A DNA stretch of 49,662 nucleotides, the filler included, from Jimgerdemannia flammicorona (taxonomy: Eukaryota), in the NCBI GenBank assembly GCA_003990765.1. It is 2 parts of 2 records of this genome, joined end to end, with 100 filler letters (N's around TTAATTAATTAA, not from the genome) between each part and the next. Parts side by side here need not be neighbours in the genome. Positions count along the whole stretch, not along the records: positions 24,883 to 49,662 come from RBNJ01000925.1; 1 more part is not named here. One strand, given 5' to 3'. Within the stretch, counting starts at the first letter, position 1. The number at the start of each line of letters is the position of its first letter. Of the stretch, positions 16,815-45,617 are shown in pieces. The notes under the pieces are model-generated. The model saw nothing but the letters and a program-made list of their open reading frames with translations, was not told the origin of the DNA and did no database searches. A program made the position numbers and the translations under genes.

Positions 16815-17200
16815 TTGATCCAAACCCTTTCTTGCTACGGTCTATCTGGGAGAGCTCGGGGACTTCTTCAATGGTGAGATCTTGACAGATTTCTTCAACA
16901 ATTGCTTGGACAATCCTTTGGTCTGTTTTGACTTCAAATGATGTGTCTCCAAAATTTCGCAAGATAATGTGGATTTCACCAGTAAATCCTTGATCAACTA
17001 CTCCTCCTCCTAGCCCAATGTTGAACTCTTTGACTAGGCTGCTTCACTCAGCAAGGCAGATGTATGTACCTTTGAGAGCTTGTATTGCAATTTCTGTTCA
17101 CACTATAGCATTGGTACTTGGTAGAATGGTGAGGTCTTGGCTGCTGTAGAGGTTATATCCAGTATCGGTTGGGTGGGCCTTAGTGGGAATGGTAATCTTA
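16815..17200 (-). pseudogene. dUTPase domain of element A
   Basis: PTKAHPTDTGYNLYS (I), E*SSL (II), GGGVVDQGFTGEI (III), QRIVQ (IV), DRSKKGFGST (V). Confidence 0.88.
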
Positions 17201-19186
17201 TATCATATCTTCTGTACTTTGATGACATTCTCAGGGTTCTTCTTTCCTGGGCCTTCTCCAATAACAGTAATGTTCTGATTACTGGGTTTGCCTGATCTGT
17301 TTCCCTTCTCAGGGAATTTGACTGAGATATGTCCTGCCTTTTTACAGATGAAGCACAATTCCTTTTCACAAAGCTGCTTCTTTTCATCCTCAATGGAAGG
17401 TCTGGGTCCTCTGGGGTTTCGCTGGTTCCTTTGATCATTCCTTTGATCATATCTTTGGTTATTCCTTTGATCATATCTTTGGTCATTCCTTTGATTATTT
17501 CTCCAGATAGGATTTCTCCTATCTTGGTTATCCTTCTTATATTCTTGATTTCATGGGGCTTGTGCAGCAAGAATTTCATGGGCTCTTCTTTGTACTTAGG
17601 CAAAGTACCATGAATAGTGGGGACATCCTTGGGGAAGACCTTGTTCCTTGATCTTCTGGGTAAGCCAGTCTGGTAGAGCTGCAAAAAGATGGTTGGCTCT
17701 GGTACCATTGATGGCCAAATTGTTCTCCTAGTAGGTAAGTTCAACAGTTTTGAGATAGGCATCCATTCTGGTGGCAAAGGTCTCTAGATCCTCTTTGCCA
17801 TTCTTGTGGAACTTCATCTGGGATAGTTTGTTCGAAGTTTCTTATATATAGGCCACATTTCAGAATTTGGTCAGTAGTAAGGCCTTAAGTCCTGGGCCTG
17901 CTTCATAGTCATCCCAACCTGGTCTATTGTTGGCAGGTGCTTGTCTATTGACTTGAGGGCAGGCTTCCCAAGTTACTGGGTGTTGTTCCAAGGTTTGCCA
18001 GAATTCGGCTACTGTTCCTGTAAAGAATGTGGCTACTGTTTCTACTTGTGCTGCTGATGTGGCAAACAGCTATTGAAGGGTACTGTTCTGGTTGTTGGTG
18101 AGCATTCCTATAGGCACTCGGTTGTCATTCCATTGGTTTGCTTGGTAGCCTGTATCAACTGCATTGATGAAGTTTTTGATGTTGCTATTTTTTCTACTGA
18201 ATGTTGGAATTCGCAAGGTCTTGATTGGTTTGTTTTGCTCAGTAATCTGTCCTACTATCTCTGCTAGTACTGCTAGCTGGGTAGTCAGTGCTACAATGTT
18301 GGTATCTACCATTATGTTGACTATTGGTGGTGGTCCTATTGGGGTAGATTCTTCTGAAGATTGTTCTGCTTGGTGGAGTTGTAGTACTGTATGACTTGGG
18401 GTTACTTGATTCCTGGATATCAAGTCAAAGAGTCCTATAAGAGAGGGTAAACTGAATCTCTGTATAGGTGGCTGGGTTGGTTCTGGGGTCTGATCTTCTT
18501 GACCTGTGATTTCTTGATAAATTCCTAGACCTGCTATTCCTCATTGGCTATCATCAGACTGGTAACCTGTAGAGTCTTTGTCTGACTCCCTTCCCTGATG
18601 AGATAGTGTGTCCTCATACTAACTAGGTCCTTCAAAAAGGATATCTGTCTCTGGCTGGATGGATGGGCCTGCTCCTTGTTCAGTAGTAGGGGATGGTTGG
18701 CCTGCTTGCTCATTCTTGTACCTGGTAATGGCAGAGGTGTAGTATACAACTAGCCTGTAGTAGATGGAGGTCTTGGTAGGGGTATGATGATATCTGTCAG
18801 AGGCAATCCACTCAGCAGCTGCTTCTCTTGCAGCAGGAGATGTGATATAATCTAGAAAATCCTGGGTGACTACAGCAGTAGATTCTGGGGTCCTAGTGAT
18901 TCCAATGTGTTCTTGGAGGAGTTCATAGAACCTACGGCAGCTAACAATGTTCCTAAGTCCTGGGTGGTATATCCTAAAGGCCTGGTATAGATTCTTGTAA
19001 GCCTGGTCAATTATAAGCTAGTGGGTCCTTGGGTCTGTAGTTTCCTGATACCACCTGGTCCTAATGGCAAGGGCTTCTCTGGCTCTGGTTTGAGGATCCA
19101 CAGTTGATTCTGGGGGTTACTCCTGTTCAAGGTTGGTCTTGTTCCAAATTCAGGAGTGTGTTCTTGATACCTTCTTGGCTGGTAAT

Positions 19187-19198
19187 CCACTGCTACCA
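19187..19198 (-). promoter_or_regulatory. Primer-binding site of element A (initiator tRNA-Met-like)
   Basis: Minus strand TGGTAGCAGTGG, 3 nt after the 5' LTR. Confidence 0.8.
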
Positions 19199-19201
19199 AG
19201 T

Positions 19202-19982
19202 TGTAATAACTCTCACTTCTACCCCTCTCTTATCCTTAGGATAATTAGGGAAGTAGACTATTACTTAGGGACTTAGTACACAATGTGTACCAAGAAGCCT
19301 TCAGTTGAGGAAGTGCTCACTTAAAGTAGTTTGTAGCGGCAGTGCCTTCTATTTCAAAGGTCTTTCTCTTGTACCCTATTTCAAGAGTCTTGTTCTTTGC
19401 TGTATACAGACTGAATTCGCCTTGGAATTTAGGTTCAATGGGTTTACTTAAGTCTTTGTGATTTGTATACTGGTCTCAGTTCTGGCAGAAGTTAGCTAGG
19501 CTTCTGGAGTTTAGTCAGAAACACTAGAGTCACTTAGATATCATTACTAAGACTCAGGGGAATGTGTATGTGTGGAGGGGACTTGATTCTTATTATCAAG
19601 GACTGAACTAAAACTGCTTTATTTTGGATGGAAACTGGGGGGTATTTATACAAGTTGGTCTGCAATTTCTGACTAAGTATGAGGTAACTATAATGAGGTT
19701 TGTGATCGCAATCTTTGTCAGGTGGTTTTTAGCAAAAAACAACTTTGTGATCAGGACCTCAATTACTAGGCAATGATCAGCTGCTGTGGCAACAGTTGCT
19801 GCAGTGCTGATTGTTGGGGATAAGCTGGATATCGTTTTCTGCGTCATTTTGGCATCGTTCGTTCATTTGTCATTTGTTATTCATATGCCGCACTTGATCA
19901 TATGATGACATCATCACCGCCGGATCACGTGATCACTCATCTCGTTACATCCCATCTGTTCGTGCTCTTTCGTTCTATTACA
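19202..19982 (-). repeat. 5' LTR of element A (~780 bp)
   Basis: Direct repeat of 230-1021, followed by the TSD GGAGG. Confidence 0.95.
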
Positions 19983-22900
19983 GGAGGAGGAAGAGGACTT
20001 GTTGGAAGCACTGGAAGAGTTGAGTGGTGCTGTGGAGCAGCAGGCGAAGGCTTGGAAGGCCTTTGAAGGGGTGACACACTTGGAGGTGGTGGATGGGAGG
20101 TGGGTTCAAGTGAACAAGGAGCAGTGGGAATGAGATCAGGGACATAAGAGATAGAAGGAACTGCTGGCAAAGATAGCAGGCAGATCTCCAAAGGATATGA
20201 GCAGAATGGTGGATGCAGGGGGTACCAAAGTGAGTGTCTGGGCAGGTGAGGGCAGTGGGAGTGCTGGGAAGGGGACCAGCGAGAACAGGGAGATGACTGG
20301 CAATGATCCATATGCTGATTGTATGTTTGAGGTATGGGAGGAGGTATGGGAGGATTCCCCTACCCCTACTCTCCTTATCAGGTGAGGCCCAGCTTCCTGA
20401 AGCAGGGTGGTGGAGGATGTGCCAATGTGGGGGGCCCAGCGAGTGCAATTTGGAGTTCCAGAGGTAGCAAAAGGGGGACAAGTAGTGGTGGCTGGTGAGG
20501 AGGAACTGGTAGACATCCCAGAGGAGTGAGATGAGGCTGCAAGTGCTGGGGCTGATACCACAATACTGGATGGTGGGAGGCTGGTGACTCTGGGAGGAAA
20601 GGAGGTGGGGAGCCTACTTTGGATATGCAGGATGATGAACAACCTAGTAGCCAAGGAGCTGAGAGGGTGAATCTCAGGGTAATGAGTGACAAGTATTAAA
20701 TGTGGATCCTGCAGGGGGATGAGATGGTGATGGCATTGAAGGTGGAAATTCTTGCAGTATATCTGGAGGAGGAAGGCTATGAGGTAGATAAGGAGCGAGA
20801 GGCAGAGCTAGTGGGAGTCACTGGAGAGAGGGCAGAATACTGCTAGACCAAGTATCATAGATTGCAGCTCTGGCAGAAAGCCTGTCTGGAGTACTGAGAG
20901 GAATTCAAGGAGAAGGCAGATGGAGAGATGAATGAGCTGTTGGCTGGATTGAAGGCTCAGAGGGCTGAAGAGGAGGTAGTGACTGTGGAATATAATCTGG
21001 ACTTGATACAGGAGGAGATGAATATAGAGCAGTAGAAAAGAGCTTGACAATACACTATTCTTTATTATGAATAGTATAACCAATGAATGTAAATGGGTTA
21101 CAGGATACTTATCAATGTAAGAACATTTTTACTTAGCTGAAGGAATTGGAGGTTAATCTCTTTCTCTTGCAGGATGTCAGGTGTGAGGATGATTTGGATG
21201 GACTGAAATGGATGAAGGAATGGAGAGGTGAGGCAGTTTGGAAGGGCAAGGTTGGGATTCTGGTATGGAAAGGCAGAGGGGAGATAAGGGATATGCAGGG
21301 CTGGGGGGATAGATTGGTCTGGGGTGAGTGGATATGCACAGGTTGAGAGCCAGTAATAGTGGGCTCCTACTACTGCTCTGCAGTATAGGGTGAGCATATG
21401 GATTGGGTAAAGGGCCTACAGGAGAGTAGGATTCTTATAGAGGTTGGGGTAGATATGCTCAGTGGGGACTTCAATATGGTCTGAGATGTATTGATGGATA
21501 GAACTGATAGAAGATGGGGAGCTGAGGGTTGGAGTGGAGGACTGGTAGTATGGGTGAAAGTGGAAAGACTGAGTGCTCTGGTAAATGTGGATAGAGAGTG
21601 TTGGGGGGATAGGAGGATGTACACACACTGGGCAGGGGGCCTGGGGATGAGAATTGATTGGATTCTGACAGCCAGCTGCTGGAGCTTGGATGTTTGGAAG
21701 TCACTGGAGGTGGAATGGTATCCATGGTCAGATTATTGGGGGCTTTTAGGGCAGGGGCATTTTAGAGAGAGTGGGGATGGGCCTGGACATTGGCATCTCA
21801 ATTCTACCTTATTAGATGATAAGATCCAGTGGAATGAGTGGGCTGCAGACATTCAACTAAGAGTGGAGTACTGGAGGCAGGAAGGTGCCCCAGTTGGTAT
21901 TCGGTAGATGAGGATGAAGGAGATGGCCAGGACCTACTGGAGTGAGGCTGGCAAGGAGGCTGGGAAACAGAGGAGGTGGCAGGTGAGATGGACTTCTAGT
22001 AGATTGTCTAGACTCTTGGAGGACTGGGTGAGACTGATGACATTGGAGGGGGAGGAGGATTGGAGATTGATAAGGGTGAAAATAGAGGTCGATGAACTAC
22101 AACAGGTGTTGCAGAATGAGGAAGAGGCAAGGGTACAGGGTTTAGTGGTGTGGCTTCATTGGCAGGGGTTGAAGGAAGGGGAGAGACTCTCAAAGTATCT
22201 CACAAGAGCCCTTCAGGTGAGAAGAGTGCAACAAAGGTAAGAGGGAGTAGTTAATGCTGATGGTATATTGGTGCACAGTGTACAAGACATTCTTGGATCG
22301 CTAAAGGAGCATTGGAGTGAATTGTAGAGTGAGGAGGAGGGTGGGGCAGATGCCGAAGCCATTGACTGAGCATTGGAGAATTGGCACCCTACATGAGTAG
22401 ATGGGCTGGGTGACTTGGTGCTGCCAGTACAAGAGGAGGAGATCCACCAGGTTCTTGCCATAACAATGCTGGGTATGGTGCCTGGGGAGGATGGTCTGCC
22501 CTGGGACTTCTGGAAGAAGATGGTAGGAGTTCCAGGAGTACTGGGTGAGATGATGGCACTGTGTGATTGGATTCTACAAATGGAGAGATGGGTGGGGGAA
22601 CAGGATCTGGGGCTGGTGACATTGCTTTATAAGAACAAAGGAAGGTGAGAGGACTGGAAGAACTGAAGGGTGTTTATGCTACTGGATATGGACAGAAAGT
22701 TGGTTACCAAGGTAGTGGTTGTGAGGCTGCAAAAGGTGGCCCAGAAAGTCCTGGGTATTGAGCAGAGGAGCTTTGTAAGAGACTGGCTCATTAGAGATGG
22801 CACAGCCTGGATTCATGGAGTTATTGAAGGGGCATGAGCCAGTGGACTGGATGGGCAACTGGTCTTTCTGGACCAGGAGAAAGCTTATGACTGGGTGCAG

Positions 22901-24782: not shown

Positions 24783-24882
24783 NNNNNNNNNNNNNNNNNN
24801 NNNNNNNNNNNNNNNNNNNNNNNNNNTTAATTAATTAANNNNNNNNNNNNNNNNNNNNNNNNNNNNNNNNNNNNNNNNNNNN
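24783..24882. other. Artificial contig-joining spacer (44 N + TTAATTAATTAA + 44 N)
   Basis: Symmetric N runs around a linker with stops in all six frames. The flanking contigs have nearly equal lengths (24782 and 24780), as expected for length-sorted concatenation. Confidence 0.93.
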
Positions 24883-29044: not shown

Positions 29045-31123
29045 ACATTTTGTGCCAATTTGAGTTATTGTACAAACAGCATCATGAACAATTCGCATTA
29101 CACTGGAGAAGTTCGCATTGTGCTAACATTCCTATGATTGTATTTGTACCGTACGACAATCCTGCGCTTATGCCTTCCCTTTAAGTCTTCTGATATTTCC
29201 TATACGCAACAAGCACATGGTGCGCAGTTATGCCATGAATCTCTATATATCAATGGTGTTCGCGCTGGCAGTGCCATATGCTGAGAATATGTAAAAACAA
29301 TTTTCTCTCACAATATTTTTACAATATGCTTAAAGTCAATGTCAAACTATGCAACTCAGCATTTTCGAAATAGCGGGGACAAAAATATGGAGTTTTATGG
29401 TCTGAGTTCATTATAAGCATTAGTAATATCTACCAATAAGTTGTATAATAGACTTTAGCTGTTATGTGCAATTCTGAGACATTTTCCCTCACAATGAAAA
29501 GGTAATTCAAGCAGGTGCCAGTTTTTGTCTACATTTTTCGGTCAGGAATACATCGGCACGGATCCGCAGAATCTCATACCAGCTATTGTAATCAATGTAA
29601 TCACACTGTATGGAGAACAATAAAATTGTGAAATAGTGGTGGACTGTACATTATATATATATATTTTGGGTACCTTGGTGCCCCTACTGGATGATTCAAT
29701 TCTTATCCCAAACAGAAATAAGAACATATGGGCACTCAACTTCAGAAGCATCCGAACTCTGGCAGATAGCTTATACAACCTCAAGCAGCACTGTGACCCT
29801 TCTTAAAAAGTAACGCGTAATCGCATGTTAGTCGTTATTGACATAGCTCTATTGACCACCATATTAATTTGTTGTAAAAACTCTGCTGTGAACCAAGACC
29901 GCTCTACTGTTCGTAAAACAGTAGTAGATATATTGAAAGCTGGCGCATAGGTTATTTCCTATCCATTACAATTTTATCAATAAAATAACCTATCTGCGGA
30001 CTTGGCCCTCATATGACTATTTGAATAATACAAACGACCATAGATGTTCATATGTCAACACACACGGACTCCGAGATGCGCGAGCACACGGGTAGGACCA
30101 ATGTTCGTGAGGTGGACCAGTCAGTACTCGATCCCTATGGAAGCATGAGAACTTATTTACCAAGGAATGACGGAATGATGTCAAAAGGCCACGTAGCATG
30201 CGAAGATCATTAATCGCGACACACCGGCGTGTCAAGTGTTTGAGTCATGAAGTCGGTTTAGAATATTCGGCATCACCGTCCGAGAGTTGGTTAGATTGAC
30301 GATCTGTGTTCCATATTAACGGCTCGACAAGGGCACCTCATCACAGATACGGAATTGCCACGCAAACTGTTGGTGTTGCACATTCGCCACGAAACCTGAT
30401 CCGAGTATTTGATGCCAAATCTGAGACAACCGAAATCATCCCATGACAATTAGCCAAAATCATCGCCCAGCGCCCAATCATCGCCCCGCCGCTAATCGTC
30501 AACAATTTCGGTTCTGTTTAGGTCTGGAACTTTAAATCAGACCATGCGCCATGTGGATCGACAAAATCGGAAATTGGATTAATGAGAAAATTGGATCGAC
30601 GACAAAAATAAGATCGACGCTTTTACACGTCATAGCCCGAGCTCTTCCGTAAACCATGATCTAGCATTTTTGAAATGACAACTATGATGAGATGTCACAC
30701 GAATTTATGAAATATTCCATCTCCGATCCCCCCTGCTCTTTGTTCCGTTTGCTCTCATTCATCCGAACCACGTCTTCATTCCGAACTGCATCTGCAAGAT
30801 TTGCTGCGACAACACAACGAGAAATCGCTCTGTCAGGCTCTCCACCAAAATTGCTTGGATCCACCAAATTTCTTAGATTTTCTACTCCTGTCAATTTTTC
30901 GTTTGCTACTGTTTTCCTCCCCCACCAAATTTCTGTTTGGTAAAGGGAGGCATCTAAGAAAAGTCCAAAAACATATTATCATTTACGTAATATATATACA
31001 TTTCAAATCGGAATATCAAATCGGAACGTTATTCCATCCATGCAACTTGATTGTTGAGGTGAATTTAAAATCATCATGTTGATCCAATTTTTTTTTTGAC
31101 GATCCAATATTTTTGTTGTTGAT

Positions 31124-31197
<74 letters not shown>

Positions 31198-31776
31198 CGT
31201 TGACCGAATGTTTGTCGAGTGTTGATCCAATCTTGTTGATTCACCCTTTAAAGGTTTGACCGGGATGGCGCGCCATATCAAAATGTCAAAGTGTCGATAC
31301 AATTTTTGTAATGTCAATCCAAAACCGTCGATCCAATCTTGGCGATCCACGATTTGAAGGTTTGACCCTGATGGCGCGTCATATTCTCATAATCTATCTA
31401 TTTATCCCATCCCGAGCTACAAAGGGTGTGTTATATTCGCTAGCGACGTTCTTTTATTTTATTTTATTTGTTTATTTATTTATTTTAAAAATGCTTCATG
31501 TTTTACCACACTAGGACGTGCATCAATAGCTATGCACTCAGTCGCGGCCGTGCCCGGTGTGCTGGGATTAAACGACGACGAGAAAATGATGGTAGTACTG
31601 AGCGACGGACGTTTATGTATAGCGCGGGTACCTTACCGCCGATATTACTGTACATAGAGGAACAAATAATATATATATATATATATATATCGTTGTTAGC
31701 TATAAAATGCAAAAACAATATGTGTTCCATTTCTACATTTTATTAGAGAGGCTCGTGCTCATTTTCTGTACTTCGG

Positions 31777-33369
31777 CTAGAGCGCTGGCCCCCTTTTGCC
31801 AATGCCATTGCCTGCAGAATATATATATATGCATTGTTGTCAGCGAGAACACTAAGCAGATGAATGCAAAATATAATGCACTTCATTTCTACATACAGGA
31901 TACATTCGGGCTCGTATTCATTTTCAGTGCTTCGGCTAGTGCGCTGACTCCCTTCTCGCCTAAAGCATTGGCTACAGAAAAACGCATAATATATATATGC
32001 ATTTTTGTCAGCGAGAACACTAAACAGATGAATGCAAAAATAAAATGCACTTCATTCCTACATACAGGATACATCGAGGTTTTGCAGGCCTTTGTTCATT
32101 TTCAGCGCTTCGGCTAGTGCGCTGGCTCCCTTCTCGCCAATGGCATTGCCTACAGAAGAACACACAAAATGTGTATGCATCGGTGTCAGCGAAAACACCA
32201 AAAATATGAACGCAAACATATATTGTATTTTATTCCTACATACAGGATATATCCAGGTTTTGTAGGCTCGTGTTCATTTTCAGTGCTTCGGCTAGTACGC
32301 TGGTTCCCTTGTCGCCGATACGATTGGCTACAGAGGGGCACATAAAATGTATACGCGTTGTTATCGGCTAGAACACCAGAAATATGAATATTCGCTTCAT
32401 TCCTACATACCCCATAGCTTCAGGTTTTGCAGGCTCGTGTTCGATTTCAGTGCTTCGGCTAGTGCGCTGGCTCCCTTCTTGCCAATACCATTGTCTACAG
32501 AGGATCACATAAAATATATACGTGGTTGGCGGCTAGAAAACTGAACATATGAACGCAAAAATAAGTGCGCTTCATTCCTATATACCTTCTAGATTTAGGT
32601 TTTGCAGGCTCGTGTTAATTTTCAGTGCTTCGGCTAGTGCGCTGGCCCCCTTCTCGCCAATGCCATTGTCTACAGAGAAACACATTGTATACGCGTGGTT
32701 GTCAGCTAGAACACTAAACAGATGAATACAAAGTATAATGTGCTTCATTTCTACACACCTTCTAGATTCAGGTTTTGTAGGCTCGTGTTCATTTTCAGTG
32801 CTTCGGCTAGTGCGCCGGCTCCCTTCTCGCCTATACTATTTTCTACAGAGAAATACATTTGTATACGTACGCGTGGTTGTCAGCTAGAGCACTAAACAGA
32901 TAAATGCAAAAACATAATGCGCTTCATTCCTACGCACCTTCTAGATTCAGGTTTTTCAGGCTCGTGTTCATTTTCAGTGCTTCGGCTAGTGCTGCGGCTC
33001 CCTTCTCGCCAATTTTATTGCCTACAGAGGAACACAAAACGTATACGCATTTTTTTCAGCTATAACAATAAACCTATGAATCCAAAATTACAATGCAATT
33101 CATTCCTACGTACTGTATAGATTCAGGCTTTGCAGGACCGTGTTCATTCCCAGTCCTTCGGCTAGGGCGCTGGCTCCCTTCTCACCAATACCATTGTCTA
33201 CAGAGGAAAATATAAAATACATACGCGTGTTGTCACTAAACAGGTGAATGCAAAAATATAATGCGCCTCATTCCTACATATATACCTTCTAGACTCAGAG
33301 TTTGCAGTCTTGTGTTCATTTTCAGTGCTCCGGCTAGTGCGCTGGCTCCTTTATCGCCAATATAACTGT
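31777..33369 (-). repeat. Tandem exon+intron array (~175-bp period); each exon encodes one 28-aa LRR
   Basis: Exons 33369-33286, 33197-33114, 33021-32938, 32842-32759, 32669-32586, 32494-32411, 32327-32244 and 32149-32066 are all 84 nt; 31971-31897 is 75 nt; 31811-31777 is terminal. Consensus xNxIGEKGASALAEALKMNTSLQNLxLx. The introns are also homologous. Confidence 0.93.
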
Positions 33370-36140
33370 CTGTAGAGACACACAAAAATGTTATACACAG
33401 CTGAAATTAGAAACCAACGAGAAGATGATATAGTATGTTCTCAAGGTTTATGACTTCCGCTACAGTCATGAAATTTCCACTGAAGAAAATCTCGAACGTG
33501 AGGCGTAACTACCTGAAAGATGGAATTCTCTAAGTTGAAAACACATCTGAAGAATATTTTTAATCCTGCAAATAGGTAAAGGTCAGTTTCATTAGCCAGT
33601 ATTATCATGGGGATTTCTGGTAATCAGACGAAAATGTTAAATAAATGATGATCTTACCGAATATTCTTCATCTTATTTAGCCTTAAGTAAGCATACCAAA
33701 AGTAAGATATGTTAGCATTTAAAATATCAAATTCATCAAACAAAAAATTTCAATATAACTTACAAAAGGATTTCATTGGAGGTTATGGCATTATTAAGAG
33801 CTTTCACATCTTCTGAACTAGCCCTTTCACAATCTACAAAGCTATTATTTTATTATTCATTCATTAGTCATTCTAGGCAAGTGAAGAACAATTGAAGTCA
33901 GACTGATTACCTGATTTTACGCAGAGGAACGCCAGACAGAATACGCGTCACCGAATTTCGAAATGTACGCAGAGAACCCCTTGACACGTTCTGGATCCTG
34001 ATATTAAAATAAAAACAGTCTTGAGTACAATACAGTATAGAATGAATGCACGAGTTGAATATTGAAGACCAGAAATAATGCTAACGTTAGCTCCCAATTC
34101 TCGTCGTCAAACTTAATACGGCCATCTAAGGCATTGTTCTTGATAGCTGTATGAAGCTTCTGAATAGCGTTTGTCGACTCCCATTCCGAGGCATGATTCT
34201 CGCAAACCCATCGCACTGTTATACTGCTGTTTTCCCCATGACGGAGCACGCGCTGCAGATTCCCAAGTCGGTTGGCGTTATCCAAGCACTCAAGATAAGC
34301 TATAATCGAAATTCGGGAGATATCATGAGCATATATCGACATCAGCGCATACACACTTGAACAGAGAAACTGCACCTTGAAGTTCTCGTAGATCAGGCCT
34401 TTCCATCAGGCCTGGGGTTCTTCCTTGCGTTTGATCTGACGGCGGAGCATCAGTCGTACATTGCTTGACCTGGTCATCGGTAGCCTCGAGCTTGTCTCCA
34501 AACATCTTGAAAAAATTTTCAGTCTGCGCACAAAACTCAAGTTCGCGGCCAGTAAAGATCGATGATTCTGTTGCCCCGTATGCCGTCGAAGCAACTTGAC
34601 CGACAGCCCGTAGGACCCCTGCTGCCGCTTTCCCAAATGCAGGAACACATTCCAATAGCCTTCCTCCCAATCGTACAGCCAGTAATAGACAGGGCATGAT
34701 CTATTTTGAGCGAAAAATATTAGATGGTGTGCCAAGCGAGTTTGGACGCCCAAGCCGAACAGATGACATACCGTACGTATGTATGGTCCATATTTAGTTA
34801 CAAACTAAAATACATTTAAGTTCAGAAAAATAAGTACAAGCGTTGGAGCGCATGTCATAACAAAAATCGAAATAACATACCTCGCGTGGCCGGGTGACAC
34901 GGTAGCCGTTGTGGATTGCCAGATGGAAGTGTTTCTTTGTGCTGCCGTTTTCGATGGTTTCGTGCTCGCAGAGAAAGTATAGACGGAACGTTTTAGTGAA
35001 GAGGATGTCAAGTGATGGCGCCCAATGGCCATCCTCGGGGAATATGAAGAACAGTCGTGGAACTGTATCCTCATGGAGATCAAGCATAAGCTTGGGCAAA
35101 CTGTCGACCTTTCCATGAAGTTCGTTGAGGCTGCTGAGGATGTCTCCCGTGTCGTTCTTTATGTCTCCCGTGTCGTTCTTTATGTCTCCCATGTCGTTCT
35201 TTATATCTCTCGTGTCGTTCTTTATCTTTTCTGTATCATACTTTATATCCTGTATAATCTATGTACACGTGCAGAAAAAAAAACCATTAAGTCTCTTAAA
35301 CGTCGTATCAGGACAATCTAACACCACAAAATATCGATTTCAACTAACCGACGCCAGATCCGAAGACGGTGCTGAGATAAAAAAGGGTATATTATTATCA
35401 GTAACATTCCTGCGGGTTTTCAGTAGATTTTCCTTGCAAAATACAACTGCATAATTCACTAACCTCGCAGTTGTTCTTTCTGGAGCTTGAGGAGTAGGCG
35501 CTCTTTTTCGCGAAGTTCTGTTCGTTCTTTGAAAAGTCGTTCTTTCTCTTTCTCGTCAGCTGTCGATTCAATCCTCTTCGTCACCAGTTCAATTTCGCCT
35601 TCAACGTTCTTGATTCTAGCTTCGCAGGTGGACTGGGTAACGGCTGTCAAAAAATTAAAAACGCAAGTTATAATACGATCCCAGACGACAGCGTTGCATG
35701 TTGCGCCGAGCGAGCCAATAATTATCCAAAGAAAAAATCTTATACCTTCCGTAGATTCCTGTTGGCCGCCTGTTCCTAATCAGACCCAAAAAAAGAATGT
35801 TCATGACCGACGGTATGACCATTTACCGGACGGAATACCATATTTGATTATATTTACCTTTCAATCGAGTAATCTCGTTCATAATTTTCGCAACAGGTCC
35901 ACCTCGTAAGTTATACGGAGGTCTCAGTAGGGCTTTTTCGGTGAGTAGAAAGAGAGCAGCTCCGTCCGTTTCCTGATCACGCAAGATGGTTATATGGTCG
36001 GGTTTCAATCCAAGAGCAGGGTGTTGAAAGTGTTCAAAAACTCTGTGTTCATCCCAGGTCTTGATTTCGTCGAGCGAGGGGGTTGGAAGTTTGAAGGAGA
36101 ACATTTTGACGGAGGTAGAGGCTATACTGCGGAACTGCAT
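31777..36140 (-). CDS. ~826-aa multi-exon protein: SAM-like domain, coiled coils, Roco/TORNADO1-C-terminal-like domain, and RNI-type LRR array
   Basis: An in-frame GT-AG model can be built by hand from exons 36140-35858, 35775-35746, 35643-35464, 35371-35349, 35249-34881, 34804-34772, 34700-34376, 34299-34086, 33997-33911, 33841-33764, 33681-33658, 33565-33513 and then ten LRR exons. The SAM signature is W..V...L...IL..QETDGAALFLLT...L..PPY.L.GGP..KI. Confidence 0.8.
35140..35249 (-). repeat. 21-nt coding tandem repeat (DIKNDTG heptads, coiled coil)
   Basis: About five copies of GACATAAAGAACGACACGGGA variants in exon 5 of the LRR gene. Confidence 0.8.
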
Positions 36141-36399
36141 TTGGTCTGAACCCCAAAGCTTTCAGTGAGAACGGTATCGGTCGGAGCTTTAAGCAAGAAA
36201 CAAAACCAAATTCATGGTAGCAAATTATAAGCGAGTTTCTGTTGTTTATTTAGACTCCGAAATAACATGCGGACCCTAGACTAGCTCAACCGCCCGGAGC
36301 AACAAAATGGGAACAGAACATAACAGAGCTGTAGCGCATCACATCGGGTCAGTATCCGACAGCTGGTGGCCCGATCTCGACAACGCCGATGACTTGCCC

Positions 36400-39300
36400 A
36401 AACAGTCGTTTTTCGAAATGAGGCATGGGACCAGTCATCATGCCTAAGAAAAGACGATTCCAGTAGTGGAAGGCCCATGACTGTCTGGATCTTGTTAGTA
36501 TCCAGAACCCCTTTTTTTTTTTTTTTTTTTTTGGGTGGCGGTGGCGCGCTGACGGCTGTGGCGGTATACCACGTAAGGTCCTTGTTGATATTAATAGATC
36601 CCGAGATGCAGCGACGCTTTCCCGGACGTCTGACAGGTGTGGCTGCGGCCGGTATGACAGTTTAGAAGGCCGACGAACCGATCTTCCCCACTTTATTTCC
36701 CAATAAGGTTAACTCTGAATCTGAACGCACCCTGTTGACATGCTCGTTTTTTTCCGTGGACTGCGAGTTGTTGAATGTGAATATTTTTTCCCAACTGACA
36801 CAACGAGCCCATGACGTTTGCTTTTTGGGAACCAAAATTCGCGTCTGTCCTCAACGCACTGGCCTTCACCGTGGTTTTCATTCGAGGAGGTGGTGTGAGT
36901 GTGCTCTCTCGTCAGGCAAACAACCGAGCGACGCAGTCTGGTCATCTGATAAGATGTGTGGTTCGAACCAATTCATTGTAACCTGATCAACAATGTCTAA
37001 ATAAGAGATCGGTGTCATAAGCGCTGCGGAAACTTGATGCGAGATTGTTATCTTATCAATAGCTTGAGGTTTTTATGGTAAGGGCTCAGCAACCAAGGGT
37101 ATTTCCTAAACATATGCGAAATATAACTTTTTACACACTATACCTTTTACATATGACATAACTGTCCCTATCTTGTGGGTGCAGAAATTGACCACTTTTA
37201 ATTTGGGGAGCGTAAATGACATGACACTTGGCTTTGCGCCATCCCGAAAGGTTGTTTAAAGATAAACATTTCTTCTATGACAATCGGATCTGAAGAGATA
37301 ACTGAGACATGATATTTAGCATAGCCCTGTCATAGATTCGAGCATGAGAAGCGTCCGAGTTCTCGTGATCTTCCTTTCTCAAATAAGATTGAACGCACTC
37401 CACCACGTTGGGAAATGGCTTGGCAATGCTCGTTTTGCCGGCTCCGATTTCCGTTTCCGCGGGACGCGGCCAATCGAGGATTACCGGCTGATGGTGGGCA
37501 TGGAAATGTCTAACAGTTGATAAAAGGCTATGGGCGAGAATGCCTTCGCTCGGCTGTAGAACAGGATGACTATATTTTTAAAATACATTTTCGCGGTTTG
37601 TCGGTCGCTTTTAGATGGAAAGCTGACGGCGTGATTGCTGCCAAACAATTGTTTTTCGAATGAGACACGGGATCAATGTCATGACGCGGATGATTCCTAG
37701 AACTAGCCATCGCGCTTAAGAAAGGAAGATTCCGGAGGACAGTGGTGGAAGTGTCCGGATCTTGGTTAGTATCCAGATAACCCATTTGGAATTGTGCGGA
37801 AAATCTCAAAATTAGATGTCTCTCCTTATTTATTTATTTATTTATTTATTGGTGCCGTGTTGACGGCCGTGGTGGTATACCATGCAAGGTGCTTGTTGAT
37901 GGCAACGTTACTAATAGGTCCTGAGGTGCAGCGACGCTTTCCCGGACGTCTAAACGGGCTGCGGCCGGGACGACAGCCTAATTCTCGTTTGGAAGGCCGA
38001 CGAACCTATCGTCCCCACTTCATTTCCCCAATAAGGATTGGCTTTGAATCTGAACGAACTTCACCCTGTTGACATGCTCGTTCTGTCGGCCCCGATTTCC
38101 GTAGGCTGCGAGTTGTTGAATGTGAATATATTTCCCCAACTGACACAACGAGCCCATGGCTTTTGCTTTTTGGGCGCCAAAATTCGCGTCTGTTCCCAGC
38201 GCACTGGCCTTCACCGTAGTTTTCAAGTGAGTGTGCTCTCTCGTCAGACAAATAATCGAGCGACGCAGTCTGGCGATCTGATGAATTGCGGACGCTTCTC
38301 ATGCTCGACTCTGCAAAATTGTCATGGGGCATGACAGGGTTGACATCTTGCGAAAAACTGGAAAGGATATGCACAGGGCTATGCTAAATATTATGTCTCA
38401 GTCATCTCTTCAGATTCGATTGTCGTAGGGGGGTTGTATGTCCTTAAACAACCTTTCGGGATGACGAAAAAGGCCATCGCTCACAACAAACGTCATGTCA
38501 TTTATGCTCCTCCAAATGAAGAATTGTCAGAGAATGATGCAGCAGCTTTTAAAAGTGGTTTTTACGTCAGCATGATTTAGTTCTGGCTTCCAAATATTGA
38601 AGTCTATTTCTGCACTCACAAGATAGGGACAGTTATGTCATGTAAATTTTTTTTCTTTTTGGGAGTGTGCAAAAAGTTATATTTCACATATGTTTAGGGA
38701 ATATCATTGGTTGCCAAGCCACTACCATAAAAGCCACACGTCATTGATAACAACCCTGCATCAAGTTTCCGCAGCGCCTATGACGCCGATCTCTTATTTA
38801 GACATTGTTTATCAAGTTCTCGTGAACTTCCTCTATCCTTTCCCAAATAAGATTGAGCTTAGATCTGAACGCATTCCACCGCGTTGGGAAATGGCTTGGC
38901 AATGCTCGTTTTGCCGGCCCCGATTTCCGTTTCTGCAGGACGCGGCCAATCGAGGATTACCGGCTGGTGGTGGGTATGGGAATGTCTAACAGTTGATAAA
39001 GGCTATGGGCGAGAACGCCTTCGCTCGGCTGTAGAAGAGGATGACTATGTTTTTAAAATACATTTTCGCGGTTTGTCGGTCGCCTTTAGGTAGAAGGCTG
39101 ACGGCGTGATTGCTGCGGTTGGAGCGCCAAACAGTTGTTTTTCGAATGAGATACGGGATCAATGTCATGACGCGGATGATTCCATAGAACTAGCCATCGC
39201 GCTTAAGAAAGGAAGATTCCAGAGGACAGTGGCGGAAGTGTCCGGATCTTGGTTAGCATCCAGAAACTCCACAAAATTGGATGTCTCTCCTTTATTTATT

Positions 39301-44464: not shown

Positions 44465-45617
44465 TTAATACTCCACCAGATTTCCAATACTCAATTCCTC
44501 CGCCCTCCCGAGCACCCACGTGGCAATCGCACAATCCTGCACACTAATCCCAACGCTCTTAAAGATAGTCACATCCTCCTCTTCCTTCCTCACCCCCCTG
44601 ACCACCCCTTCAACGATCTTGCCCTCCGCATCCACCAATCTCCCAATCTCGATCCACCCGTCGTCATACGTCCTCCTCCCTTCATTCACTTCACGTATAA
44701 ATTCCCCTGCCTCTAACTTGCACGCCTCCACCGAATCAACCACAACCATCCGCGCCTTCCCAACCGTCACTTGGTCCACCTCCTCCATATCTGGCGTGTA
44801 CGAGCCAACGCAATTCAGATGTGCACCAGGTTTTACGTCCGCGCCGTTGAAGAGCGGGGTCGACGTGTTGGTGCACGTGCAGATAATGTCCGCCTGGCGA
44901 ACGGCGGAGGCGATGTACGCGCTGCCGGACCCGACGATTGTGCGGAAGGTAACGGAGGGATGCAGAGTACGAAGCTCGGATACCATAGAGTCGAGACGAC
45001 CAGCGGTGCGGTTCCAGATCGTCACGTGCGTGAGCGTGGGGCGGATCGCGAGGATTAGGTCGATATGTGAGCGGGATTGGGCGCCAGAGCCGAAGATCAG
45101 GAGGTGCGTCGAGGTCGGAGAGGAGAGGTGGAGGGTTGCGAGGGCGGAGCCTGGAGTGAAATGGAGCACAAGTAGGGAAAGTGGGTTGTGAGGTCAGTGT
45201 CACGGTATAATTAATCTCACCAGCATAATATCAACCATGTGGTTTTTAGTTGAGCTCAAGCTCACCTGCCGCGGTCCTCACCGCCGTCAACGCTCTGGCG
45301 TTCACAACAGCCTTCACCTCGCCGGTTTCCTCGTCAATGACCAACGTCGTGGCCGGTATACCACTCGTCTGGCCTTTGGTGGGTACGCTGACGATCTTGA
45401 TGGCTGTTCCCACGTCCTGCAGGCTCGACGGCATAAATAGTACTTTGTGGGCGTCCGTCTTCACGGTCATCCGGTGCGGGACCTGGGTGGCGCCTGGGAC
45501 GTTGCTAAAGGTGTGGAAGGTGCGCGCCATGAGCTCCAGGAGGGACATGGGCGAGGCGGCGTTCAGAAGAGAGGTCACGTTGGAGTGCGAGAGGATGCGG
45601 ACATTGAGGGTGGCCAT
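44465..45617 (-). CDS. Ornithine cyclodeaminase / mu-crystallin (ketimine reductase) family protein, 345 aa, 2 exons (45617-45266, 45150-44465)
   Basis: Motifs LFMP, IKIVSV, LTAVRTAAGSALAT, Rossmann IFGSGAQ, IWNRT, ADIICTCT, PGAHLNCVGSYTPDMEEVD, EAGE and TIFKSVGISVQD. The GTGAG...CCAG intron keeps the frame. Confidence 0.95.

What the first reader, a model, noticed from the sequence alone, without database searches (positions are those of the whole stretch)
31777..33369. One-LRR-per-exon cassette array: candidate shuffling-based variable receptor
Seen: ten near-identical exon+intron units, all phase 1-1, so any exon can be skipped, duplicated or swapped in frame. The helix (IGEKGASALAEALKMNT) is almost fixed. 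Variation clusters around the splice junction (LSLE|DSY, LNLY|SNK, LNLE|ENS, LKLW|ANR, LDIS|CNA), and one variable codon is split across two exons, so new exon pairings create new residues. The last two units are decaying (9-nt and 1-nt deletions), as expected at the edge of an array under unequal crossover. Known: the x positions of LxxLxLxxN form the ligand-binding concave face, exon-per-LRR shuffling is described for brown-algal ROCO genes, and Dikarya NLRs typically use WD/ANK/TPR rather than LRR sensors. Inference: a diversifying non-self recognition system.
Basis: partly seen in the sequence, partly recalled or inferred. Interest (0 to 1): 0.75.

Follow-up and report, generated by a model that had tools for sequence, protein, structure and literature searches.

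The report
One-exon-per-repeat LRR gene in Endogonales fungus
A gene of a Jimgerdemannia-like fungus builds its leucine-rich-repeat domain from tandem copies of an 84-base exon plus a short intron, as vertebrate NOD/NLRC genes do, but nothing here shows that the cassettes are shuffled to make variable receptors.

Summary
On the minus strand, 33369-31777 carries eight 84-nt exons, one 75-nt exon and a frameshifted terminal exon. Each encodes one 28-residue ribonuclease-inhibitor-type LRR. All are phase 1-1 and separated by homologous 83-95-nt GT-AG introns. "Near-identical" overstates it: exons are 74-89% alike and introns 68-93%.

The array is the 3' end of a 22-exon, 829-aa gene (36140-31777): a weak SAM match, a coiled coil, a conserved domain with no Pfam or PDB fold match, then the LRRs. 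No NACHT, NB-ARC or Roc was found. A neighbouring gene is 96% identical to Jimgerdemannia flammicorona, so this is Endogonales, not Dikarya. Mortierella antarctica has a collinear homologue.

Change is concentrated at the exon ends, which encode the x positions of LxxLxLxxNxI (P about 0.0003). At four such codons it runs about twice the intron rate, but I picked that subset after seeing the data.

No relic or inverted exons occur. Skipping and repeat-number variation could not be tested.

Best reading: tandem exon-plus-intron duplication by unequal crossover in a cytosolic binding or sensor protein. An immune role is possible but unshown.

The parts
31777..36140 (-). Whole gene model: 22 exons, 2490-nt coding sequence, 829 aa, a single terminal stop
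   Evidence: Hand model checked by script. All 21 introns are GT..AG and 69-143 nt long, and the frame is open from ATG to TAG. The product aligns collinearly with Mortierella antarctica P0044: residues 212-762 against 201-717, 33.6% identity, E 4.5e-74. One contig of run X1 joins 34259..34085 to 33996..33911 with 0 differences, which removes intron 8.
35858..36140 (-). Exon 1: N-terminal domain, probably SAM
   Evidence: Pfam SAM_1 E 0.0023, 18.7 bits, below the 23-bit cut-off. By their molecule names, all 23 PDB sequences matched at E<=1 are SAM-domain proteins (L3MBTL3, polyhomeotic, Scm, SARM1, SAMD1/atherin); best E 0.0027.
35464..35643 (-). Exon 3: charged helical, coiled-coil-like segment
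   Evidence: Translation. The equivalent part of homologue P0044 is modelled as one long helix, residues 123-221. No Pfam family matched.
35140..35225 (-). 21-nt in-frame tandem repeat in exon 5, encoding DIKNDTG heptads
   Evidence: Tandem Repeats Finder: period 21, 4.1 copies, 93% matches. Translation.
34086..35258 (-). Exons 5-8: conserved domain X of unknown fold (VPRLFFIFPED...FRLYFLCEH...HLAIHNGY...RPREF..KYGPY, then a helical part and LGNL...VRWVCENH)
   Evidence: 398 cluster representatives match exon 5 at E<=1e-3. The named ones looked up are from Endogone, Mortierella, Dissophora and Gryganskiella, all labelled 'hypothetical protein'. No Pfam family matched at E<=0.001 on exons 5, 7 or 8; exon 5 had only two weak coiled-coil-type matches, E 0.08 and 0.24. 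The domain modelled alone from P0044 (pLDDT 76) has best PDB Z 3.0, and Foldseek finds nothing at E<=0.001. Invariant Pro/Arg/Phe/Cys/Glu/His columns are listed.
33513..33997 (-). Exons 9-12 (87, 78, 24 and 53 nt): irregular leucine-rich lead-in to the array, with different intron phases (2-2, 2-2, 2-2, 2-1)
   Evidence: Exon 9 is bounded on its 5' side by the contig joint. These exons are not homologous to the repeat unit: local alignment score 15, against a shuffle mean of 16.7 taken from the downstream flank.
33286..33369 (-). LRR unit U1 (84 nt, phase 1-1), the most divergent full unit
33114..33197 (-). LRR unit U2 (84 nt, phase 1-1)
32938..33021 (-). LRR unit U3 (84 nt, phase 1-1)
32759..32842 (-). 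LRR unit U4 (84 nt, phase 1-1)
   Evidence: U3-U5 are the most alike, at 87-89%.
32586..32669 (-). LRR unit U5 (84 nt, phase 1-1)
32411..32494 (-). LRR unit U6 (84 nt, phase 1-1)
32244..32327 (-). LRR unit U7 (84 nt, phase 1-1)
32066..32149 (-). LRR unit U8 (84 nt, phase 1-1)
31897..31971 (-). LRR unit U9 (75 nt): a 9-nt in-frame deletion removes part of the LxxL strand motif; still phase 1-1
31777..31811 (-). Terminal unit U10: a 1-nt deletion shifts the frame and gives TAG at 31779-31777. Homology to the unit runs on to 31756.
   Evidence: Alignment to U8: unit positions 1-57 against window 31811-31756, one 1-nt gap.
31739..31744 (-). AATAAA, 32 nt after the stop; candidate polyadenylation signal
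   Evidence: The function is inferred only.

Best explanation
The array is the C-terminal domain of an intact gene of a Jimgerdemannia-like (Endogonales, Mucoromycota) fungus. The gene is probably transcribed. Its 829-aa product has no predicted signal peptide or clear membrane span.

Domain order:
- a SAM-like N-terminus, probably for self-association;
- a coiled coil;
- a conserved Mucoromycota domain of unknown fold;
- a horseshoe of about ten ribonuclease-inhibitor-type (NOD2/RI/RanGAP-like) 28-residue LRRs.

How the array arose and evolves:
- It grew by repeated tandem duplication of one block, an 84-nt exon plus an intron of about 90 nt. Unequal crossover between units is the most likely process.
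- Every unit exon is symmetric (phase 1-1), so gain or loss of units keeps the frame.
- After duplication the helix and the leucine scaffold stayed under purifying selection.
- The solvent-exposed x positions of LxxLxLxxNxI, which lie on either side of the splice junction, changed at or above the neutral rate. Each repeat therefore presents a different surface.
- The 3' edge of the array has decayed. One unit is shortened, and the next is frameshifted and now supplies the stop codon and the 3' UTR.

What is shown: the anatomy, the phases, block duplication, the site pattern, family membership, and the lack of an NTPase domain.

What is inferred: unequal crossover as the process; that the LRR face binds a protein or other ligand; that SAM and the coiled coil oligomerise; and that the protein acts as a cytosolic sensor or adaptor.
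For: - Exon coordinates, lengths, phases and splice sites.
- Block duplication: introns align along their whole length at 77% identity against 81% for exons. Exon dS is 0.255, against an intron distance of about 0.27 worked out by hand.
- Scaffold constraint and surface change: dN/dS is 0.57 for 22 scaffold codons, 1.00 for the six x positions and 1.54 for the four junction-flanking codons.
- Parsimony steps per site are 2.12 at first and second positions of those four codons, 1.06 in intron interiors and 0.44 at other first and second positions. Mann-Whitney P is 0.002 and 0.0001.
- Steps cluster at exon ends, P 0.0003.
- The frame is open over 829 codons.
- A contig of run X1 bridges intron 8 with 0 differences, and three more contigs match exons with 0 differences.
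- For all 11 of the 15 listed joints on the array whose intervening letters are given, the letter count exactly fills the distance to my exon ends. Related sequences in that run therefore carry units joined in 84-nt register without introns (my arithmetic).
- RI-type LRR: 28-residue period and consensus. Homologue P0044 has Pfam LRR_6 at E 5.5e-44. My model aligns to its LRR part at 46% identity. The modelled P0044 LRR matches rabbit NOD2 (Z 29.6, rmsd 3.0, 281 aligned), ribonuclease inhibitor (Z 27.9) and NLRP3 (Z 27.9).
- Organism: the neighbouring ornithine cyclodeaminase is 96% identical to Jimgerdemannia flammicorona. Exon 5 is 63% identical to Endogone sp..
- Cytosolic: the N-terminus is not hydrophobic, and the highest 19-residue Kyte-Doolittle mean is 1.55.
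Against: - The function is wholly inferred. No ligand, partner or phenotype is known for any member, and every named homologue is 'hypothetical protein'.
- The excess over the neutral rate rests on eight nucleotide sites in four codons that I chose after seeing the data. The pre-defined six-codon set gives exactly 1.0. Comparing repeats within one protein is also not a proper test of positive selection.
- Run X1 is only guessed to be RNA. Two of its exact contigs run into what I call introns 4 and 6 (records 6 and 4). It therefore holds unspliced RNA or DNA, or those two introns are wrong.
- Splicing of the array in this very gene is not shown. The listed contigs on the array that can be checked differ from the window.
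- The last intact-looking units carry a 9-nt deletion and a frameshift, and the gene lies beside retroelements. A gene on its way to decay is not excluded.
- The SAM assignment is below Pfam's cut-off.
Confidence: 0.65

Rival explanations
1. The cassettes are used combinatorially, by regulated or stochastic exon skipping or by frequent germline or somatic recombination among units and paralogues. This would generate a diversified repertoire of non-self receptors.
For: - All nine internal unit exons are symmetric with lengths divisible by three. PMC6642158 (passages) calls this the precondition for functional LRR splice isoforms in human NLRs.
- A codon at a variable position is split by the intron.
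- Variable residues lie at the presumed binding positions.
- Run X1 holds many related LRR contigs: 135 of 222 laid contigs are 90-95% alike. Only 2 of the 15 listed joints pair units that are neighbours in this gene.
Against: - No isoform of this gene was seen. The out-of-order joints are what paralogues with similar units would give, and none could be assigned to this locus.
- No relic, inverted or intronic exons occur, unlike Ectocarpus (PMC3341825 passages).
- Units differ by about 0.26 per silent site, and only 3 of 28 unit pairs reach the 85% amino-acid identity used as the mark of highly conserved repeats in fungal NLRs (PMC4986451 passages).
- Splice signals of all units are strong and alike, so none looks like a weak, skippable exon.
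Confidence: 0.08
2. An ordinary, non-immune LRR scaffold or regulator, in the way RanGAP, ribonuclease inhibitor or axonemal LRR proteins use the same fold. Its repeats simply tolerate change at exposed positions, and the exon-per-repeat layout is only a trace of how the domain grew.
For: - dN/dS at the six pre-defined x positions is 1.00, as expected without constraint and with no need for positive selection.
- The RI-type fold of the homologue matches non-immune proteins as well as NLRs: axonemal doublet-microtubule proteins Z 26-29 and RanGAP Z 25-27.
- No death, TIR, NACHT or other known immune module was found.
Against: - The four junction-flanking codons change about twice as fast as intron interiors.
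- The domain-X family is large and varied in architecture in Mucoromycota: 398 representatives, 47 loci of which 44 come from one metagenome, and lengths of 83-2562 aa among those listed. That pattern is more typical of conflict-related families than of housekeeping genes.
- Many related sequences occur in run X1.
Confidence: 0.22
3. A young or decaying gene in a transposon-rich region. The array would be a recently amplified minisatellite-like block whose coding capacity is being lost, starting at the 3' end.
For: - The last two units are damaged.
- Retroelement ORFs fill 3-20 kb of the window.
- Scaffold dN/dS is 0.57, only moderately constrained.
- The closest named relative of exon 5 is a 192/226-aa fragment.
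Against: - The reading frame is open over 829 codons and 21 introns with canonical ends.
- Scaffold first and second codon positions change at less than half the intron rate (0.44 against 1.06 steps per site, P 0.0001).
- The architecture is collinear with a Mortierella protein from a different subphylum by standard taxonomy (recalled), so it is old.
- An exact contig lacks intron 8.
Confidence: 0.05

Closest known systems
Vertebrate NOD/NLRC genes (RI-type LRR, one 28-aa LRR per exon) and NLRP/RNH1 genes (two per 171-nt exon)
   Same: - Same LRR class. The homologue's modelled LRR matches NOD2 best, at Z 29.6 and 34% identity.
- Same unit size: 28 aa, 84 nt.
- One repeat per exon, with every border at the same place in the repeat, in or next to the beta strand. 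Exons can therefore be removed in frame (PMC6642158, passages).
   Different: - No NACHT domain. The N-terminal part is SAM-like, coiled coil and an unknown domain.
- The host is a fungus.
- The introns here are short (83-95 nt) and still homologous to each other, so the duplications are much younger.
- I did not test whether the intron sits at exactly the same codon and phase as in the vertebrate genes.
Ectocarpus ROCO (LRR) and NB-ARC-TPR genes with exon-per-repeat shuffling
   Same: Each repeat is encoded by one exon of fixed length divisible by three, in candidate receptors, and the repeat domain varies (PMC3341825, passages; PMC11378527, search listing and start of abstract only).
   Different: - Those LRRs are 24 aa (72 nt) and of the plant-specific type, attached to Roc-COR.
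- Shuffling there was argued from relic and inverted exons inside introns and from paralogues with 13 against 17 exons.
- Here no relic or inverted exon exists, and paralogues could not be read.
[quoted passage not shown]
   Same: Tandem arrays of equal-length LRR exons, all introns in one phase, and a 'junction' amino acid encoded across two exons (PMC6564038, passages).
   Different: - Their exons are 90 bp and the introns phase 2.
- They number thousands of genes, linked to a LINE-like element and to particular chromosome regions.
- Here the exons are 84 bp and the introns phase 1. One array was seen, and the family size in the genome is unknown.
Fungal NLR repeat domains with high internal conservation (HET-E/D/R type WD40, ANK, TPR)
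   Same: Tandem repeats in a multidomain cytosolic fungal protein, with change concentrated at exposed positions and a repeat number that can change by unequal recombination (PMC4986451, passages).
   Different: - Those proteins have NACHT or NB-ARC. The cited surveys found no LRR in fungal NLRs, and the repeats classed as highly conserved there are at least 85% identical.
- This protein has LRRs and no NOD, with mean repeat identity 70%.
Mortierella antarctica hypothetical protein KAF9989650.1 (P0044) and the Mucoromycota domain-X family
   Same: Collinear coiled coil, domain X and RI-type LRR: 33.6% identity over 565 aligned positions and 46% over the LRRs. The helix consensus is the same (GAxALAEALKxN).
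   Different: - P0044 lacks the SAM-like N-terminus.
- Of 18 family members scanned, 2 had LRR_6 and 2 more only a weak match to another LRR model (E 3e-5 and 5e-4, below its cut-off).
- None of the 47 metagenome loci carried the helix motif.
- The intron structure of the Mortierella gene could not be read here.

Membership tests
RI-type (ribonuclease-inhibitor-like, Pfam LRR_6) leucine-rich repeats | Repeat length of 28-29 residues | tested here: met
   Eight units of exactly 28 codons.
RI-type (ribonuclease-inhibitor-like, Pfam LRR_6) leucine-rich repeats | Consensus LxxLxLxxNxIGxxGaxxLaxaLxxN with an alpha helix on the convex side | tested here: met
   The column table fits it. The consensus itself is recalled, not taken from a call. 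Helices alternate with short strands in the model of homologue P0044.
RI-type (ribonuclease-inhibitor-like, Pfam LRR_6) leucine-rich repeats | Significant match to the Pfam LRR_6 profile | tested here: inconclusive
   Single exons of 27 aa give E 0.16 and 0.78, below the cut-off. The spliced product could not be submitted. Homologue P0044 scores E 5.5e-44, and the model protein aligns to its LRRs at 46% identity.
RI-type (ribonuclease-inhibitor-like, Pfam LRR_6) leucine-rich repeats | Horseshoe fold like RI or NOD2 | tested here: met
   Tested on the homologue only. P0044 residues 421-719 match NOD2 5irm_A (Z 29.6, rmsd 3.0, 281 aligned) and RI 4per_A (Z 27.9).
NLR / STAND receptors | Central NACHT or NB-ARC NTPase domain | tested here: not met
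   No such Pfam match on exons 1, 3, 5, 7 or 8 at E<=1, nor on 18 of 18 homologues at E<=0.001. Domain X modelled alone has no fold match above Z 3.0. Caveat: the window's exons were scanned one by one.
ROCO proteins | Roc GTPase plus COR domain next to the LRRs | tested here: not met
   Same scans as above. Among the fold matches, the Roco protein 8r4b_A aligns only to the LRR part, Z 16.9.
Exon-per-repeat LRR arrays that evolve by exon duplication or shuffling | One repeat per exon, equal exon length, one intron phase throughout | tested here: met
   Eight exons of 84 nt and one of 75 nt, all phase 1-1.
Exon-per-repeat LRR arrays that evolve by exon duplication or shuffling | Introns duplicated together with the exons | tested here: met
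   Nine introns align end to end, at 68-93% identity excluding gaps.
Exon-per-repeat LRR arrays that evolve by exon duplication or shuffling | Relic, inactivated or inverted repeat exons within introns (the Ectocarpus criterion for ongoing shuffling) | tested here: not met
   All 10 motif matches are on one strand, one per unit. Introns are 83-95 nt with no inserted unit. Beyond U10 nothing aligns except an AT repeat.
Exon-per-repeat LRR arrays that evolve by exon duplication or shuffling | Different repeat number or order among paralogues, alleles or isolates | not testable with these tools
   No genome is held. A 20-mer scan of the metagenomes found 0. The last protein search found nothing.
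Exon-per-repeat LRR arrays that evolve by exon duplication or shuffling | Alternative use of repeat exons in transcripts | not testable with these tools
   Only assembled contigs of one run were available, and the joints could not be assigned to this locus.
SAM domain | Match to SAM profiles or structures | tested here: inconclusive
   Pfam SAM_1 E 0.0023, 18.7 bits against a cut-off of 23. By their molecule names, all 23 PDB hits at E<=1 are SAM-domain proteins, best E 0.0027.
Lamprey VLR-type somatic cassette assembly | An incomplete germline gene flanked by banks of donor LRR cassettes | tested here: not met
   The gene is complete and spliceable. No LRR units lie elsewhere in the 49.7-kb window. 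The rest of the genome was not seen.

The most novel reading that the evidence does not exclude
The SAM-like/coiled-coil/domain-X/RI-LRR proteins of Endogonales and Mortierellomycotina would be a fungal class of LRR-based intracellular sensors that work without a NOD module. This would fill the gap noted since surveys found no LRR among fungal NLRs. Domain X would be a new oligomerising or effector module, with conserved Cys/Glu/His and an amphipathic hydrophobic hairpin. The LRR surface would be diversified among many paralogues by gain, loss and exchange of 84-nt phase-1 exon cassettes, the same exon logic as vertebrate NOD/NLRC genes, arrived at independently or inherited.
Probability: 0.18. 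Interest if true: 0.8.

Novelty: new variant of a known kind. Interest (0 to 1): 0.45.

Why it matters
Exon-per-repeat LRR arrays are known from vertebrate NOD/NLRC genes, brown-algal ROCO genes and Tetrahymena. My six literature searches listed no paper describing one in a fungus, though the library holds only open-access papers and preprints.

Surveys of fungal NLRs report no LRR sensors (PMC4986451 and PMC10197012, passages). A conserved Mucoromycota family that couples NOD2-like LRRs to an uncharacterised domain and a SAM-like module would therefore be a concrete candidate for asking whether early-diverging, plant-symbiotic fungi use LRR-based recognition.

The introns are still alignable. 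The locus therefore keeps a readable record of how a solenoid domain grows exon by exon. Silent, scaffold and surface sites can be compared within one gene.

If it proves to be an ordinary scaffold protein, the value is limited to annotation of an unannotated gene family.

Tried and rejected
- Sequencing runs: no RNA holder listed. One run (X1, guessed RNA, assembled contigs, share 0.17) was laid. It cannot give levels, strand or isoforms of this locus, and parts without cover mean nothing.
- Whole genome: none is held, so there is no census of paralogues or of 84-nt phase-1 exons.
- Metagenome scan with a 20-mer of the helix-coding part: 0 matches.
- Metagenome scan with the exon-5 alignment: 47 loci, 44 of them from one metagenome, at 30-59% identity. 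None of the 47 carries the RI-LRR helix motif, while the same scan finds 8 in the window. An earlier, stricter pattern also listed no locus with two or more matches. The loci say nothing about LRR exon structure in relatives.
- Protein searches: exon 5 with 'longer' lengths gave one hit, from Endogone. A single 27-aa LRR exon was below the 40-aa minimum. Exon 8 with 'longer' lengths gave none. No annotated close paralogue with LRRs was recovered, which is weak evidence only, given the word-based search.
- ESM Atlas on P0044 residues 205-470: best score 0.78, all LRR clusters, below the level that shuffled sequences reach. Uninformative.
- Fold of domain X: VIA wide best Z 3.0 (Drp1 stalk, HIGD1B, GLTP-fold rows, all tied). 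Foldseek against PDB gave nothing at E<=0.001. This shows neither a new fold nor a known one.
- Search for further decayed units beyond U10, or for homology of the unit to exon 12 and intron 12: only an AT-repeat match, and a score of 15 against a shuffle mean of 16.7 taken from the downstream flank.
- A two-unit higher-order period, suggested by the Tandem Repeats Finder row with period 348: identity at distance 1, 2 and 3 units is 0.830, 0.823 and 0.824, so there is no such structure.
- Earlier findings of this scan: four look-ups, nothing held.
- Considered and rejected: NLR, ROCO, VLR-type cassette bank (see the membership tests), and a transposon-borne repeat. The array lies inside a spliced open reading frame and its units occur nowhere else in the window.
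Full report
**1. What is in the sequence**

The array is on the minus strand. Tandem Repeats Finder reports a period of 178 nt, 9.5 copies and score 1481 over 31749-33396. A 20-mer from the helix-coding part matches ten times with up to three mismatches. All matches are on one strand and inside the array, and none of 100 shuffles gave a match.

Reading the minus strand and checking by script gives ten units:
- U1-U8 are eight exons of exactly 84 nt, with high ends at 33369, 33197, 33021, 32842, 32669, 32494, 32327 and 32149.
- U9 (31971-31897) is 75 nt, after a 9-nt in-frame deletion.
- U10 (31811-31777) has lost one base and runs into TAG after eleven codons.

The nine introns between them are 83-95 nt and all GT..AG. 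Their 5' ends (GTATGTAGGAATGAAG-like) and 3' ends (CTCTGTAG) are conserved.

Every internal unit exon begins with the last two bases of a codon and ends with the first base of the next, which is phase 1-1. Each unit encodes one 28-residue repeat: x-N-x-I-G-E-K-G-A-S-A-L-A-E-A-L-K-M-N-T-S-L-Q-N-L-x-L-x.

**2. How alike the units are**

The exons of U1-U8 are 74-89% identical (mean 81%). The introns are 68-93% identical excluding gaps (mean 77% over I1-I8), or 70% if gaps count. At the protein level the units are 57-86% identical (mean 70%), and 3 of 28 pairs reach 85%. "Near-identical" is therefore too strong.

Synonymous divergence between units (dS 0.255) matches the intron divergence of about 0.27, which I obtained by hand with a Jukes-Cantor correction from 77% identity. 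Exon and intron were therefore copied together and have since drifted at the same silent rate. Nothing shows that exons are homogenised more than introns. No two-unit higher-order period appears.

**3. Where the differences lie**

Unit positions 1, 3, 26 and 28 have 4-6 different residues among eight units, and position 21 has 4. No other position has more than 3. In the register LxxLxLxxNxI these are x5, x7, x8 and x10. From general knowledge of LRR structures, they lie on the strand and the loop after it, on the concave side. They also sit on either side of the splice junction, and position 1 is the split codon.

On a neighbour-joining tree of the eight units, 26 of 64 parsimony steps fall in the 18 terminal bases of the exon (binomial P 0.0004, permutation P 0.0003). 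Steps per site compare as follows:

| Site class | Steps per site |
|---|---|
| First and second positions of the four junction codons | 2.12 |
| Intron interiors | 1.06 |
| Other first and second codon positions | 0.44 |

The first class exceeds the intron rate (Mann-Whitney P 0.002, Poisson P 0.007). The third lies below it (P 0.0001).

Pairwise dN/dS values are:

| Codon set | dN/dS |
|---|---|
| All 28 codons | 0.80 |
| 22 scaffold codons | 0.57 |
| Six x positions defined beforehand | 1.00 |
| Four junction-flanking codons | 1.54 |

I picked the four-codon set after seeing the table, and it holds only about two synonymous sites. The honest statement is that the scaffold is constrained, that the surface is unconstrained or better, and that the excess over neutral is suggestive only.

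The intron ends next to these codons are the best-conserved part of the introns. The variable patch is therefore not a local mutation hot spot.

**4. The gene around the array**

I built a model by hand and checked it by script. It has 22 exons from ATG at 36140 to TAG at 31777. All 21 introns are GT..AG and 69-143 nt long. The coding sequence is 2490 nt (829 aa) with one terminal stop.

- Exon 1 gives a weak SAM_1 match: E 0.0023, 18.7 bits against a cut-off of 23. By their molecule names, all 23 PDB sequences it hits at E<=1 are SAM-domain proteins, including L3MBTL3, polyhomeotic, Scm, SARM1 and SAMD1.
- Exons 3-5 encode a charged helical stretch. It includes a 21-nt in-frame tandem repeat (35140-35225) that spells DIKNDTG heptads.
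- Exons 5-8 encode a conserved region that I call domain X.
- Exons 9-12 are short, leucine-rich and irregular, have other intron phases, and are not homologous to the unit.
- AATAAA lies 32 nt after the stop.
- The N-terminus is not hydrophobic, and the strongest 19-residue hydropathy window is 1.55, inside domain X. I therefore take the protein to be cytosolic.

**5. Evidence on transcription**

The search for sequencing runs listed one run, X1. It is kept as assembled contigs and is only guessed to be RNA. When laid on 31000-37000:
- One contig joins 34259..34085 to 33996..33911 with no differences. That removes exactly my intron 8 (GT at 34085, AG at 33998), as a spliced transcript would.
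- Three other contigs match exons with no differences. Two of these (records 4 and 6) run on into what I call introns 6 and 4. The run therefore also holds unspliced RNA or DNA, or those two introns are wrong.
- On the array, most of the 222 laid contigs are only 90-95% alike (135). A further 56 are 95-99% alike and 31 are 99% or more.
- Fifteen joints are listed and 41 more are not shown. For all 11 listed joints whose intervening letters are given, the number of letters equals the distance from the aligned ends to my exon borders. Those contigs therefore carry units head to tail in 84-nt register without introns.
- Only 2 of the 15 joints pair units that are neighbours in this gene.

I read these contigs as transcripts of related genes. 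They support the exon borders and the existence of a family. They do not show skipping in this gene.

**6. Organism and family**

A neighbouring ORF (44468-45193, ornithine cyclodeaminase family) is 96% identical to a Jimgerdemannia flammicorona protein. The next named hits are Bifiguratus and Mucorales at 38-45%. Exon 5 is 63% identical to a fragmentary Endogone sp. protein.

An exhaustive profile-free search with exon 5 found 398 cluster representatives at E<=1e-3. I looked up 20 of them. The nine clusters with an organism name come from Endogone, Mortierella, Dissophora and Gryganskiella, all labelled "hypothetical protein". The rest are unnamed environmental fragments.

Several short fragments end by reading through into an intron at the same place as my exon 5/intron 5 border.

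Pfam finds nothing in domain X. Among 18 homologues scanned:
- 2 carry LRR_6 (P0022, P0044);
- 2 have a weak match to another LRR model;
- 1 has only a weak coiled-coil-type match;
- 13 have no family at E<=0.001.

My model protein aligns collinearly with P0044 of Mortierella antarctica (719 aa):
- residues 212-762 against 201-717, 33.6% identity, E 4.5e-74;
- the LRR parts at 46% identity.

That fits an architecture of coiled coil, domain X and RI-type LRR older than the Endogonales.

**7. Structures**

The AlphaFold model of P0044 (35-row alignment, mean pLDDT 71, LRR part 88-97) matches solved LRR horseshoes over residues 421-719:

| Solved chain | Z | rmsd (Å) | Residues aligned | Identity |
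|---|---|---|---|---|
| Rabbit NOD2 | 29.6 | 3.0 | 281 | 34% |
| Axonemal LRR protein | 28.7 | 2.5 | 272 | 31% |
| Chicken ribonuclease inhibitor | 27.9 | 2.7 | 286 | 25% |
| Mouse NLRP3 | 27.9 | 2.7 | 289 | 22% |
| RanGAP (two entries) | 25.1 and 27.4 | 2.8 and 3.7 | 278 and 291 | 20% and 28% |

Domain X was folded alone from a 59-row alignment (235 residues, pLDDT 76, pTM 0.71). The model is a small sheet followed by a long helical hairpin and a second small sheet with a helix. It has no match in 48,161 PDB representatives above Z 3.0, and none by Foldseek at E<=0.001. Invariant or nearly invariant columns include P-R-x-F, F-x-C-E, several His, and Y-G-x-Y. What the domain does is unknown.

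**8. What it most likely is and how it works**

Shown:
- An intact gene whose LRR domain is made of one-repeat exons in a single phase.
- Introns that were duplicated with the exons.
- A constrained scaffold and a fast-changing surface.
- A decayed 3' edge.
- RI/NOD2-type repeats.
- No NTPase domain.
- Membership of a Mucoromycota family.

Inferred:
- The array grew by unequal crossover between units.
- It can still gain or lose units in frame.
- The horseshoe binds a ligand on its variable face.
- SAM and the coiled coil assemble the protein.

I put about 0.65 on this package as a whole. Most of the doubt lies in the functional part.

**9. Rivals**

- Combinatorial use of cassettes by splicing or frequent recombination: about 0.08. 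The preconditions are met, but the locus has none of the relic or inverted exons that carried the Ectocarpus argument (PMC3341825, passages). The units are 0.26 apart at silent sites, and no isoform was seen.
- An ordinary non-immune LRR scaffold: about 0.22. The pre-defined x positions give dN/dS exactly 1, and the fold is shared with many non-immune proteins.
- A decaying gene in a retroelement-rich region: about 0.05. This is opposed by the open frame, the scaffold constraint and the conserved architecture.

**10. Comparison with what is known**

The nearest described layout is that of human NOD and NLRC genes. According to PMC6642158 (passages), most of them encode one 28-aa RI-type LRR per exon, with the border always at the same place in the strand. 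That paper presents this modularity as the precondition for alternative splicing, as shown for NLRP3. NLRP genes use 171-nt exons of two repeats.

Other described arrays:
- Ectocarpus ROCO genes use 72-nt exons of a different LRR type.
- Tetrahymena has tens of thousands of 90-bp LRR exons with phase-2 introns and a junction amino acid (PMC6564038, passages).

Surveys of fungal NLRs found WD, ANK and TPR repeats and no LRR (PMC4986451, passages; PMC10197012, passages). PMC12258605 (passages) reports few NLRs in the Mucoromycota proteomes it sampled.

My six literature searches listed no paper on exon-per-LRR arrays in fungi or on this family. The library holds only open-access papers and preprints, so that absence is weak evidence.

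The locus is not an NLR, a ROCO protein or a VLR-type system (see the membership tests). It does work like the NOD/NLRC LRR domain in exon logic and fold.

**11. Verdict**

I rate it a new variant of a known kind: an exon-per-repeat RI-type LRR array in a fungus, attached to an undescribed domain. Interest is moderate at 0.45. It would rise sharply if paralogues or isolates differ in cassette number or order, or if the family proves to act in recognition.

Noticed in passing
window 35140-35225 (-): A 21-nt in-frame tandem repeat (4.1 copies, 93% matches) in exon 5 encodes DIKNDTG heptads just before domain X. It is a second, smaller length-variable element in the same gene.
   Followed up: partly
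window 34086-35258 (-); proteins P0044, P0022, P0028: Domain X has no Pfam family and no PDB fold match (best Z 3.0). It has invariant P-R-x-F, F-x-C-E, His and Y-G-x-Y columns across 59 sequences and an amphipathic hydrophobic helical hairpin. P0022 carries the domain twice.
   Followed up: partly
loci L003-L047 (all except L043, from one metagenome): A single soil-type metagenome holds 44 distinct loci encoding domain X at 30-48% identity to the window's exon 5. None has the RI-LRR helix motif. This looks like a large, architecture-variable expansion in one Mortierella-like genome.
   Followed up: partly
window 3000-20000, mostly (-): ORFs resembling a retroelement polyprotein (protease-like, reverse-transcriptase-like, and integrase with chromodomain-like motifs, judged by eye) occur in at least two related copies. 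The plus strand here has a strong positive GC skew (0.15-0.28) and negative AT skew. The skew rises to 0.41-0.49 at 20-24 kb, where the ORFs are low-complexity and proline/serine/histidine-rich.
   Followed up: no
window 31127-31197: An uninterrupted run of 71 T on the plus strand lies about 580 nt beyond the gene's stop, flanked by short GATCCAATTTTT-type repeats.
   Followed up: no
window 24783-24826 and 24839-24882: Two runs of 44 N (assembly gaps).
   Followed up: no
window 44468-45193 (-): An ornithine cyclodeaminase / mu-crystallin family exon is 96% identical to Jimgerdemannia flammicorona. This places the window in Endogonales.
   Followed up: yes
window 34701-34754 and 35259-35315 (-): Two exact contigs of run X1 continue from exons into what I model as introns 6 and 4. 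This could be retained introns, unspliced RNA, DNA in the run, or errors in my model at these two introns.
   Followed up: no
window 32444 and 32451 (U6): Most related contigs in run X1 carry other letters here than the window does: 21 contigs at 32444 and 8 at 32451. The unusual Lys-Ser-Asn of U6 therefore seems to depart from the family's usual Lys-Met-Asn.
   Followed up: no
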